Positions 15,847-21,065 of a DNA stretch of 64,000 nucleotides are shown one piece after another. Below the pieces are notes generated by a model that saw nothing but the letters and a program-made list of their open reading frames with translations, made no database searches and was not told where the DNA came from. A program made the position numbers and the translations under genes. Numbering within the stretch: the stretch's first letter is position 1; each line of letters opens with the position of its first letter. Source of the DNA: Rhynchopus sp. YZ270_cl-10 (taxonomy: Eukaryota); contig OZ037836.1 of assembly GCA_964035575.1 (NCBI GenBank), positions 1,984,001 through 2,048,000 on the forward strand. The letters are read 5' to 3'.

Positions 15847-16528
15847 TAAGGGTAGCATAAGTTTTTTTTTTGTACGAGTATGCAATACGTCTGGAAATGA
15901 AAGACGCGCTCGTCGGTGGTCATGAGTTTTACCGTTTTCCCCTTCCCCCCTTGTGCTCCACCTCTCCACCGTACTTCAGGACGCGGGTTTTTCGGGGTTT
16001 TCGGGACTTTTGGGGTTTGAAAAAAAAAAAAAAAAAAAAAAACTATGTCATCTGTGGCTGTTCCCTGGGATAGCTGGCCGGGTGGGGATAAGGTCATTTG
16101 GGATCAGATCAAACCCCCAGTCCCCAAAGCAAATGCAATGGAACCGGACACCGAAGATGAGTGCATTTTTCCTTCGTGCGGTGTAACCAAAAGAAAACCG
16201 ACGCAGGAGCTTTTCTTGGAACTGTTTTATTCTCCCTACCCCAACAACATTACATTTCAGAAACACATTGTTTTTTCGTTTTTGTTCACTTTCTTTTCTT
16301 CTCCCTCACACCTGTTTGCTGTGAATTAAATTTTTTCGTTTGCCTGGTCGCATACTGCGAGTTTTCCTGGAAGCGCAGGAAAAATGACTGGGGAGTGTTG
16401 GTGGCTCCGTGACGCCACAGAGCCGGCACACTCGTTGAGTGCCTCACAAAACCTAAAAATTTATTCCGTTTTGATTTTATTTATTGTCTTCACGCTATAT
16501 TGTTGTTGTTGGGTTGGGAAATAAAATC

Positions 16529-17452
16529 ATGCACAAAAAGGGTGTCCTTGGCTGCATGGGCTGCGGCAGACAGTGCACGAAGACGTGCATGCGGAACACG
16601 GGGCTATTCCCTGAAGGGGTGATCACAGACTTCCTCAAGAAGACAGAGAGATGGGTGTGTCCGGTGTGCGCGTGGAGACGTGCGCCAAGAACGAAGGTGA
16701 AAAAGGAAAAGCCGATCGAGCAGCAGCAGGACGAGGAGGACGACGACGCAGAGGACACGGTGGAAGGGCTCCTCGCAGTGATTCCGGAAACCGCTAAGAA
16801 GCTTTTCATGCACACTTTTGCACGTTTGGATTTTCTGCAGCAGGAGAACGAGAGTCTCAAGAAAACTATAGAGTTTATCAAGAAGTCCCAGCAAACGGCA
16901 CTCGACGCTGATTTCTCGCCGTATGTTGTTGCAACCTGGAAAAACATCCAAAATAGCCGCATCAGAAAGGAGATAAGGGAAAAGGTAGGAAAGGCATTCA
17001 GGGAGTCGACCCTACCCACTTTTGATAATGCACTCGAGTATCAAAAGGGCGTCCTAAGATGCTTCGAGGCGCTGGACAACTCCCTGGCGCTGATCGAGGA
17101 CTCAGAGGACCCACCCGCAACCAAGTTCCTGACGCCCATACACAACACCATAGTAGAACTCACCTCGACCACAATTATTGGGGCTAATGCTGCCGGAAGG
17201 ATGATGTACGAGTCTAAAGCAAAGGGATACGCGGTGGATGACTTCTCAAAAGTCATCCAGGCTCGCATTCTGGACACGGCCAAGAAGCAGCCGCACGCAG
17301 AGGTACCGTCGAAGACGCGGGATTCAGGGAGGGACGCCAAGGAGAAGAGAGACGACAGGGACAGGGGAGGAGACGATACGAGGGGGCGCGACCGAGACTA
17401 CTGGGGCAACACGGGAAAGGAGTTAAGAAGGTACGCAGGGCCCAGACGTTGA
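16529..17452 (+). CDS. Gag-like ORF1 of the YR retrotransposon, with an N-terminal Cys-rich (PHD-like) finger
   Basis: CMGC..C..C...WVCPVC, coiled-coil stretch, basic R/D-rich tail; first ORF of the element. Confidence 0.7.
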   Translation: MHKKGVLGCMGCGRQCTKTCMRNTGLFPEGVITDFLKKTERWVCPVCAWRRAPRTKVKKEKPIEQQQDEEDDDAEDTVEGLLAVIPETAKKLFMHTFARLDFLQQENESLKKTIEFIKKSQQTALDADFSPYVVATWKNIQNSRIRKEIREKVGKAFRESTLPTFDNALEYQKGVLRCFEALDNSLALIEDSEDPPATKFLTPIHNTIVELTSTTIIGANAAGRMMYESKAKGYAVDDFSKVIQARILDTAKKQPHAEVPSKTRDSGRDAKEKRDDRDRGGDDTRGRDRDYWGNTGKELRRYAGPRR

Positions 17453-20400: not shown

Positions 20401-20784
20401 GACGACGAAGACGAGAAGGTTGCGCAGGGAACGTTCGGCGCAGGCCACGAGGACACCTCAATCTTCCTGAAGGAGCTGTATGCGGCAGCTAAGTCTGTGC
20501 TATTGGCGGCAAAATACACCAGCGCGTGCACTGTACACATGAAGGTCGACAACTTGTCTGCCGTTTTCTGCATTGAGCGGGGACACAGCAGCAACTTTGC
20601 GGCGAACGCCATTCTGTCGGAGATGTTTGCGGCGGCAAAGCAGAACGGGATGACCCTGAGGTGCACTCACGTGGGGACAAAACAGCAGAGAGCGGACCGA
20701 TTCACCAGAGGAGACAAAGCGAAGACAAACGAGCAGCTACAGGCGATCACTTCTCTCTTCGAGAGCGCTGCGCGTCCCTATTAA
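17449..20784 (+). CDS. Reverse transcriptase-RNase H ORF; N-terminal part overlaps the whole YR ORF; true start uncertain
   Basis: KKSGGLRFVVDGRKLN, SDARSWFYQI, LAMGWSFAP, WIDN (YxDD position); RNase H VWSDAS...E...VDN...ADRFTR. Confidence 0.9.
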   Translation: MTDRGRNTRKQEYYREDIREDNAGRYKKEDTGTIPSKRRQFNGDNREENSKHDTKHDTGTIPSKRRQFNDDNGEENSKHDTKHDTGTIPNKRRKFNDDNREENSKHYTKQGNTGNNGVIGDQRQNIGDEEEDKREDNPRTRQQGRKFTGGGTPEEPQPERFAGRKTSFASRTSTTEGNTTHHRTSSAGHGEGATHSVTGVIGVVHGGAAKRVAPSKRVQNKLGATHEDRARVRRGDHSVVREEANNGKHAPISSVTNLNRSVGSTETNGEYENRRFATVGRLPTGTEEIGSAEADDPSTSGDNRGDTQGYICSQKPIAEAGVDDDVARGSTMLRRVGTQSRRNFDERPYCTDWGPLGRHEVRPFPPRETHRNGYGSVDVESFKGSDEEIEGLRPTIQRPLLQDNRQIVEKSKSEPHSSLPKARSGAPPQQQESTVGTDPDDHATRHGGGSHPLLAERRSATGRTDDFAVEAPAPRRLKFVHEAPIPQAFKIPYPRYYNHDPSPVHNKEGTCDDLPADSEQTFIQTILEDSQSPSEDAGLLSLYDNSLCVRSSATNIRPPAEARAGGTDQDYIAAISRGRICLDTLESLDKENELEDILQIIRKRETFVSHLKEGWDKQAGIRRGTSRHMAQHLDTLIDFGVLSRTSAPQEVILHAFTVEKKSGGLRFVVDGRKLNRSMGPPPQMRLPHITAVIHRIVNSNWVVLSDARSWFYQIEVDQSIRPFFGVNTAGERGQFTRTVLNCLAMGWSFAPAIAQRCSRVLLPEEFGICWIDNFIVIQQSREEAVAQFSSFCERCDKANVELNMDDPSYGTPTQQFCVFGVEFNLEKHTFRSEPAWLEKFVQKDELAALRTGKLTPRQFYVVFGCIVWHSYTTHTPLCTLPAAITFVQNLASKTLQNVLLWDIHVEVPPSVIFEVRKRISLMTTNSWILQPPPPPPPPPPPPPPPPPPPPPPPPPPPPPPPPPPTKTITVWSDASKAEWAAILEDDEDEKVAQGTFGAGHEDTSIFLKELYAAAKSVLLAAKYTSACTVHMKVDNLSAVFCIERGHSSNFAANAILSEMFAAAKQNGMTLRCTHVGTKQQRADRFTRGDKAKTNEQLQAITSLFESAARPY
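17513..18880 (+). CDS. Tyrosine recombinase of the retroelement
   Basis: Catalytic residues all present: AARCSD (R), TKSD (K), HSLRRG (HxxR), TRH (H), LIRY (Y). Confidence 0.9.
   Translation: MQDATKRKIRGQYQAKDDNLMATIGKKIQNTTQSTIRGQYQAKDDNLMTTMGKKIQNTTQSTIRGQYQTKDENLMMTIGKKIQNTTQSKATPATMGSLGIRGRILATKKKIKEKTTLEPDNREENSRGAAPPKNLSLSALLEERPPSHLGRPRQKEIPLTTEQARLVMEKAQHTLSQALSGSYMGELRSVWRRLNEFKTNWEQHMKTELGYDEAIILWLEKKRTMENMLPSAALQTSIVASAALKRMANTRTEGSQLLADYQRALRRLGALKPTTQAPPATTEEIRKAISVAKNPSLKLALTMMWQGAARCSDVLGLKAEEISMNDHTAQIGVHWVDTKSDPFRLGKHTGMDMAPSMLKALKGQMKKSKGSDRLFKDLSYRTIGKSLKRVNQNLTPHSLRRGAAHHLNNKRVPLEQIQMITRHDTVEGLIRYLPKGGLQRVEQTTLLSKPLHLED
17536..17778 (+). repeat. 81-bp tandem repeat, 3 copies, in the dual-coding region
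   Basis: GATACGGGGACAATACC starts at 17536, 17617 and 17698. Confidence 0.95.
20239..20340. repeat. 102-nt poly(C) tract, in frame as 34 prolines between RT and RNase H
   Basis: Read directly; length is a multiple of 3. Confidence 0.9.
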
Positions 20785-21065
20785 GGGTCCTGATGGATGC
20801 GATCAACAAACAACAAACAACGAATAAACAAAGAAGGGGGGGTATTTCATTTTTTTGGTTCCCGTTATCGCCGCACTTTTTTTTGGATTTTCGGAAAAAA
20901 AAAAACTAAAAAAAAAAAAAAACTAAACAGTGCAATTGGGTGGCTTCTATGTGGTTTCGTGACGCGATACCCACCACCACGTCCTCCAATGGGCTGAAAG
21001 TGTTAAAATACGGCATTTTGGAAATAAATTTTTACCATTCAGCCTGTCAGCGTTGACACCCAGCT

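What the first reader, a model, noticed from the sequence alone, without database searches (positions are those of the whole stretch)
16043..20839. Apparently intact VIPER/TATE-like tyrosine-recombinase retrotransposon
Seen: three uninterrupted ORFs, all YR catalytic residues, RT with WIDN in place of YxDD, RNase H, and a Cys-rich finger on ORF1. Known: YR upstream of RT/RNase H is the order in kinetoplastid VIPER and TATE, unlike DIRS and Ngaro. No split direct or inverted terminal repeats were found. Inference: possibly a new and recently active lineage, sitting in the middle of the LRR array.
Basis: partly seen in the sequence, partly recalled or inferred. Interest (0 to 1): 0.7.

Follow-up and report, generated by a model that had tools for sequence, protein, structure and literature searches.

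The report
Broken copy of young VIPER-like retrotransposon
This is a damaged copy of a likely young jumping gene that encodes a reverse transcriptase and a tyrosine recombinase; it resembles the VIPER/TATE elements of trypanosomes, has many undescribed relatives, and its group likely makes both enzymes by reading through or slipping past the stop codon of its first gene.

Summary
The element is real, but this copy is not intact. It spans 15873-~20854 and sits inside the left inverted repeat of another transposon, in a stack of five insertions with a paralogous empty site. YR and RT/RNase H frames are open. ORF1 really starts at 16045 and is split by a 343-bp HINE-like insertion that contigs of 4 of 4 runs skip. 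The RT-RNase H linker holds 34 prolines against 2 in 10 of 10 siblings. Only the A1 and B1 ends are present, while four distant relatives show full A1...B1-A2-B2 repeats, so A2-B2 was likely lost. Siblings are about 99% identical, so the family is young. Named relatives are diplonemid. WIDN is shared with kinetoplastid VIPER (read by eye) and xDN with 115 of 129 relatives. No labelled VIPER/TATE could be put in a tree, and RT motif 2 differs, so membership is likely but unproven. New here: across relatives the gag stop is TGA-CT in 11 of 21 (0 of 78 other stops), often beside a slippery heptamer, which suggests readthrough plus -1 frameshifting at one site.

The parts
15873..20854 (+). YR retrotransposon copy, layout A1-ORF1-YR-RT/RNase H-B1; A2-B2 absent
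   Evidence: Interrupts the left inverted repeat of the TIR element; contig ends and loose ends at 15873, 20792, 20853-4
15873..16044 (+). 5' end (A1, inner limit not fixed), with pyrimidine tract and CAG at 15977-15979 (likely trans-splice acceptor) and an A23 run before the ATG
   Evidence: Sibling protein P0242 begins with the translation of 15870-16037 (91% over 56 aa) fused to the RT frame; X6 contig links 15969 to the body; acceptor is inference
16045..16183 (+). ORF1 (gag-like), first 46 codons, with two Cys of the Cys cluster
16184..16526 (-). 343-bp high-copy insertion splitting ORF1; terminal plus subterminal inverted repeat, 3' hairpin, no duplication; HINE/Helentron-like
   Evidence: Joint 16183-16527 in 4 of 4 runs; repeat 2 of 500 shuffles; fold z -4.29; HINE features
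16527..17452 (+). ORF1, remainder (307 aa from ATG 16529), PHD-like spacing of Cys by eye; ends in TGA followed by CTG
17413..17455 (+). Predicted recoding site: in-frame G GGA AAG heptamer (17413-17419) ten codons before TGA-CTG
   Evidence: Sequence; lineage-wide pattern; function inferred
17453..18880 (+). Tyrosine recombinase frame, in frame with ORF1; 81-bp tandem repeat at 17494-17777
17242..20784 (+). RT/RNase H frame (-1 to ORF1), WIDN at 19756
20239..20340 (+). 102-nt poly-C run, in frame, unique to this copy
20772..20790 (+). CCC-loop-GGG-CC motif at the RT stop, just before B1
   Evidence: 13 of 32 RT stops (window included) against 33 of 664 background windows; pattern chosen after seeing examples
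20792..20854 (+). 3' end (B1), far deeper than the body in three runs
15865..15872 (+). Left copy of the 8-bp T7G core
20850..20857 (+). Right copy of the 8-bp T7G core
15850..21985 (.). Host TIR element (TAA on both sides, Harbinger-like ends); left repeat split into 15850-15872 and 20851-20929
   Evidence: superfamily label from recalled TSD rules
15402..15846 (.). MITE-like element with TA flanks and internal palindromes
21649..21765 (.). Small high-copy MITE-like element inside the TIR element
37828..37834 (+). Paralogous empty site behind another ubiquitin-LRR gene

Best explanation
This is a damaged copy of a likely young tyrosine-recombinase retrotransposon with the VIPER/TATE gene order, which likely integrated as a circle into a T-run and likely lost its second pair of end repeats afterwards. 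Shown: ends, nesting, gene order, catalytic residues, the ORF1 insertion, the poly-C run, near-identical siblings, split direct repeats in distant relatives. Inferred: an intact A1-ORFs-B1-A2-B2 element is transcribed and trans-spliced upstream of ORF1; ribosomes mostly stop at the gag TGA, sometimes read through into the YR frame and sometimes slip -1 into the RT/RNase H frame; RT uses the repeats for strand jumps to make a circular cDNA; YR recombines the circle junction with a T-run target, leaving T7G on both sides; B1 x B2 recombination then removed A2-B2, and a HINE-like element broke ORF1. A1 x A2 recombination would give solo AB units (SIRE-like), which would explain the depth at both ends. 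The host is likely a diplonemid.
For: Nesting and empty site. Depth falls after 20854 and loose ends sit at 20792 and 20853-4. ORF1 joint in 4 of 4 runs. P0242 ties the A region to the RT frame at another locus. 36 of 50 metagenome loci have YR upstream of RT, 4 are circular permutations, 10 lack one gene hit; L002, L005, L009, L010 carry both A and B repeats. In those loci B1 starts just after the motif that also precedes 20792. TGA-CT at 11 of 21 gag stops against 0 of 78 YR/RT stops; slippery heptamer within ten codons in 8 of 14 elements whose RT frame is -1 or unlocated, 0 of 7 where RT is in frame, 1 of 78 controls. Tree: diplonemid-labelled clade, SH-aLRT 93.8 and 99.1. Solo AB repeats are reported for Ngaro and SIRE equals A2-B2.
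Against: No copy of this family, or of any diplonemid-clade relative, was seen with A2-B2; the repeats are from a separate clade at 31-34% RT identity. No contig joining A to B was seen, since the two ends were laid in separate calls. Contig depth is not copy number, and in X6 the B end is only 2-3 times the body. Loose ends after 4-5 T suggest a core shorter than 8 bp, and homopolymer lengths in this assembly are doubtful. The window's own heptamer lies one codon outside the tested range; in L012 the RT frame opens 12 nt after the gag stop; no structure follows the stop in 6 of 6 folds. The Fisher P values ignore relatedness.
Confidence: 0.7

Rival explanations
1. A-ORFs-B is the native integrated form in the diplonemid clade: no split repeats, and the circle is regenerated by YR excision or from tandem copies, then transcribed past unit length like a pararetrovirus.
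For: No repeats in this copy; host sequence resumes cleanly at both ends; many relatives assemble as 4-4.6 kb circles or permutations.
Against: An A1...B1-A2-B2 element also collapses to a circle in short-read assembly; four relatives show the A2-B2 junction; B1 x B2 recombination gives exactly this layout.
Confidence: 0.15
2. The element nests inside kinetoplastid VIPER or TATE and is an ordinary member rather than a separate branch.
For: Same order, xDN motif, repeats in relatives; one Crithidia VIPER copy begins with T7G.
Against: No kinetoplastid name among 34 hits or among 20 looked-up proteins, 3 of which had a taxon, all diplonemid; RT motif 2 keeps its Asp here and in 107 of 129 relatives but reads differently in two VIPER and three TATE copies by eye.
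Confidence: 0.25
3. The deep end pieces (15873-~16000 and 20792-20854) are unrelated small repeats, and the element is shorter at both ends.
For: Both are 10-100 times deeper than the body in three runs; no A-B joint was seen.
Against: P0242 has the A region on the RT frame at another locus; X6 contigs link both ends to the body; B starts where B1 starts in relatives.
Confidence: 0.07
4. All of 15850-21985 is one element with DIRS-like inverted ends and an internal complementary region.
For: 24-bp perfect terminal inverted repeat, and 20851-20929 complements 21884-21973.
Against: The two left pieces join into one copy of the right repeat; depth drops after 20854 and contigs leave there; TAA flanks both sides.
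Confidence: 0.03

Closest known systems
VIPER (kinetoplastids; Ribeiro 2019, PMC6681497)
   Same: gag-like, YR, RT/RNase H order with overlap; xDN at the RT active site (WIDN, YLDN by eye); SIRE equals A2-B2; repeats A1...B1-A2-B2 as in distant relatives here
   Different: Host likely diplonemid; RT motif 2 keeps RxVxDxRxLN; ORF1 has a PHD-like Cys cluster, no CCHC box seen; this copy lacks A2-B2
TATE (kinetoplastids)
   Same: Order, repeats, xDN (LIDN/MIDN by eye), no CCHC box
   Different: W before the DN; motif 2; not in telomeric repeats
Ngaro (Cafeteria; Hackl 2021, PMC8547959)
   Same: A1-ORFs-B1-A2-B2, solo AB repeats, ORF1-deleted variants (P0242 is one here)
   Different: Ngaro order is gag, RT/RNase H, YR
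DIRS1-like
   Same: YR plus RT/RNase H; short T-rich core at both ends
   Different: Inverted terminal repeats and ICR are absent here
Diplonema papillatum 'Gag-Pol polyprotein' gene models (Valach 2023, PMC10161547)
   Same: 42-47% RT/RNase H identity, WVDN, same clade
   Different: Not characterised as elements; the passages seen only say that over 60 ORFs resemble TATE, MULE and Helitron

Membership tests
DIRS order (YR retrotransposons) | RT/RNase H plus tyrosine recombinase with RHRY residues | tested here: met
VIPER-like (VIPER + TATE) | Order gag-like, YR, RT/RNase H with overlapping frames | tested here: met
VIPER-like (VIPER + TATE) | Split direct repeats A1...B1-A2-B2 in this copy | tested here: not met
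   Only A1 and B1; likely loss
VIPER-like (VIPER + TATE) | Split direct repeats in the family | tested here: inconclusive
   Both repeats in 4 of 50 distant loci, B only in 3 more; no sibling DNA available
VIPER-like (VIPER + TATE) | RT groups with VIPER and TATE in a tree | not testable with these tools
   No labelled VIPER/TATE protein was returned; the paper's alignments are unreadable here
VIPER-like (VIPER + TATE) | Asn for the second Asp of YxDD (seen in the paper's copies, not a published criterion) | tested here: met
   By-eye reading; window WIDN
VIPER-like (VIPER + TATE) | No target-site duplication | tested here: inconclusive
   T7G on both sides fits a shared crossover core or a duplication
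VIPER proper | CCHC box in Gag (some species only) | tested here: not met
   None seen in ORF1; also absent from several VIPERs
Ngaro | YR downstream of RT/RNase H | tested here: not met
DIRS1-like | Inverted terminal repeats and ICR | tested here: not met
   Left end against reversed right end: 41 of 500 shuffles score as high
PAT-like | RT clade and gene order | not tested
HINE/Helentron (343-bp insertion) | Terminal and subterminal inverted repeat, 3' hairpin, no duplication | tested here: met
   autonomous partner not sought

The most novel reading that the evidence does not exclude
The copy marks a large undescribed sister lineage of VIPER/TATE, spread through diplonemids and unidentified eukaryotes, whose RT works with Asn in place of the second YxDD Asp and whose single gag stop is a three-way switch: termination gives Gag, readthrough gives Gag-YR and a -1 slip gives Gag-RT/RNase H, with a mirror subtype that reaches RT by readthrough.
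Probability: 0.4. Interest if true: 0.72.

Novelty: new variant of a known kind. Interest (0 to 1): 0.5.

Why it matters
VIPER and TATE are so thinly sampled that a 2025 retroelement phylogeny left them out (PMC12440569). This lineage supplies over a hundred distinct xDN relatives and a young family, likely in a diplonemid. How YR retrotransposons express their overlapping frames was not addressed in the papers I searched, and the gag-stop signature gives a direct reporter test. In Ty1 the same Asp-to-Asn change keeps polymerase activity but blocks transposition (PMC2148107), so natural xDN RTs show how it can be tolerated. The nesting gives an exact integration junction. The copy itself is a likely dead passenger.

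Tried and rejected
No host genome is held, so sibling DNA could not be aligned. No relatives in viral or prokaryote contigs; no exact match to the B end in viral contigs. No RNA holder listed. Earlier findings: nothing. YR homology search gave only 2 hits; the Atlas gave generic recombinases for YR and unnamed, mostly Euglenozoa clusters for RT. PDB search gave only weak LTR-type and retroviral RTs. Degenerate inverted ends: not significant. Similarity of the 343-bp insertion to the element ends: not convincing (13 to 405 of 500 shuffles). RNA structure after the gag stop: none in 6 of 6. My first YR-before/after labels were wrong because of envelope overlap and were recounted. The large tree dropped the window protein because poly-Pro split its domain; one search includes it. 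Circular contigs were not taken as proof of DNA circles. Not found in print: searches; subscription papers (Lorenzi 2006, Poulter and Goodwin 2005, Poulter and Butler 2015) and Repbase were not seen and may cover the motif or the stop-codon layout.

Full report
Observation. The region holds a YR frame (17453-18880, PF00589 E 1.6e-12) and an overlapping RT/RNase H frame (17242-20784, PF00078 E 2.1e-8, WIDN at 19756), behind a 307-aa ORF with no Pfam match. The YR catalytic Arg, His and Tyr columns are kept in 49, 48 and 44 of 49 aligned relatives. It lies behind a ubiquitin-LRR gene of a tandem array.

Ends and nesting. A paralogous gene has an empty site at 37828-37834, so about 15400-21985 is inserted. 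The stack holds a MITE-like element (15402-15846), a TIR element flanked by TAA (15850-21985) and a small MITE (21649-21765). The TIR element's left repeat is cut in two: 15850-15872 and 20851-20929 together match the reversed right repeat. The retrotransposon fills the cut, with T7G on both sides. Contigs of four runs agree: depth in X1 is 1230 over RNase H and 333-647 over most of the TIR interior, loose ends lie at 20792 and 20853-4, and a contig starts at 15873. Sibling protein P0242 starts with the translation of 15870-16037 fused to the RT frame, so the 5' end belongs to the element at a second locus, in a copy lacking ORF1.

Not intact. Contigs of 4 of 4 runs join 16183 to 16527 at body depth. 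The join is in frame from ATG 16045, so a 343-bp high-copy insertion splits ORF1 inside its Cys cluster. The insertion has a terminal and a subterminal inverted repeat, a 3' hairpin and no duplication, matching HINE features (PMC4067079, abstract and passages). The 102-nt poly-C run encodes 34 prolines; 10 of 10 sibling proteins spanning the linker have 2 (13 examined). It may be an assembly error.

Young family. Contigs differ from the copy at 2 of 430, 4 of 559 and 6 of 954 bases, the last two with a 3-nt gap. Seven of 13 sibling proteins keep a whole RT plus RNase H, two are frameshifted and four are fragments; there are two subfamilies with different tandem repeats. That they come from the same genome is likely, not shown.

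Relatives. Named hits are diplonemid: D. papillatum, Rhynchopus, Flectonema. A profile search gave 886 representatives at E 1e-30 or better; of the top 150, 129 span the core, 115 have xDN and 14 have DD. An IQ-TREE run on 70 chosen sequences and 467 columns puts the window in a diplonemid-labelled clade (SH-aLRT 93.8, inner 99.1); it holds no labelled VIPER, TATE, Ngaro or PAT. Of 50 metagenome loci at 24-38% identity, 36 have YR upstream of RT, 4 are permutations and 10 lack one hit. L002, L005, L009 and L010 show A1...B1-A2-B2; L026, L041 and L048 show the B pair. B1 begins just after a CCC-loop-GGG-CC motif found near 13 of 32 RT stops, the window included, against 33 of 664 background windows; I chose the pattern after seeing examples. 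In the window the deep 63-bp piece starts 2 nt after that motif, so I read it as B1 and the copy as A1-ORFs-B1.

End repeats. Both ends are far deeper than the body in X1, X2 and X4 (for X1 about 57,000 and 69,000-104,000 against about 1,000), but only 2-10 times in X6. Depth is summed over contigs and is not copy number. Solo AB units, as reported for Cafeteria Ngaro (PMC8547959, passages) and SIRE, would explain it; I saw no A-B joint.

Expression. In 21 elements left after dropping five near-duplicates and one gypsy-like locus, the gag stop is followed in frame by YR (14) or RT (7). It is never TAA; it is TGA-CT in 11 and TAG-G in 4, against TGA-CT in 0 of 78 YR and RT stops. UGA-CUAG is a reported readthrough context (10.1101/2021.04.18.440353, passages). 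Where YR is in frame, RT is in the -1 frame in 12 of 12 located cases, and an in-frame X XXY YYZ heptamer (pattern recalled) lies within ten codons of the stop in 8 of 14, against 0 of 7 in the other subtype and 1 of 78 controls. In the RT-in-frame subtype the first Met lies 229-342 codons downstream. The window has TGA-CTG and a G GGA AAG heptamer one codon outside the tested range, so it is not among the 8. Against: relatedness inflates the counts, L012 does not fit, no downstream structure was found, and overlapping frames could constrain these bases.

Comparison. Ribeiro 2019 (PMC6681497: abstract, sections 3, 6, 7, 9, 20, passages; supplement 10 part 1 of 6 and passages of 10 and 11; alignments unreadable) and PMC12278014 (passages) give VIPER and TATE the same order and repeats. 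By eye, their copies read WIDN, YLDN, LIDN and MIDN, but lack the RxVxDxRxLN motif kept here. So the element works like VIPER/TATE; membership is likely but untested by tree, and one defining feature is missing in this copy. Also seen as passages: PMC10161547, PMC12440569, PMC3783388, PMC7192593, PMC3266345, PMC12747079 (nothing relevant); PMC2148107 as abstract and passages. Harbinger and MITE labels rest on recalled target-site rules.

Verdict. A damaged copy of a young family: ordinary as a locus, useful as a handle on a broad undescribed VIPER-like lineage with a testable recoding signal. Interest 0.5.

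Noticed in passing
window 1348-43041: Tandem array of intronless ubiquitin-like plus BspA-type LRR genes ending in a CaaX-like Cys motif; at least nine copies on the + strand.
   Followed up: partly
window 20930-21681: Interior of the TIR element holds two short offset frames with CxxC pairs and no Pfam match; perhaps a decayed transposon gene.
   Followed up: partly
window 22210-22242: Short piece with very high contig depth and loose ends upstream of the next LRR gene; weak matches at several other array units.
   Followed up: no
loose ends before 20792 (run X2): The blurred consensus holds 12 bases complementary to window 15969-15980, hinting at a hairpin in the short A-B derivative; agreement is only 0.49.
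   Followed up: no
window 3479-4941: Long short-period repeat giving a spurious ORF.
   Followed up: no
P0057, P0063, P0065, P0069, P0073, P0077, P0090: These predicted proteins, most named D. papillatum, hold YR and RT in one chain; may be gene-model artefacts or real fusions.
   Followed up: no
L032: Two diverged units (74% identical) lie head to tail in one contig.
   Followed up: no
L031, L034, P0135 clade; P0194, P0208, P0131, P0167: WxDD and Y-DD types appear inside the xDN radiation, and L034 has YR upstream of RT, so the DN change may have reverted or arisen more than once.
   Followed up: partly
P0082, P0080, P0005 and P0006 clusters: Further diverged families on megabase contigs, some with many identical members, suggest several active families per genome.
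   Followed up: no
window 47079-48395 and 55103-56668: A transporter-like ORF and a 521-aa ORF with an N-terminal Cys cluster were seen in the ORF map only.
   Followed up: no
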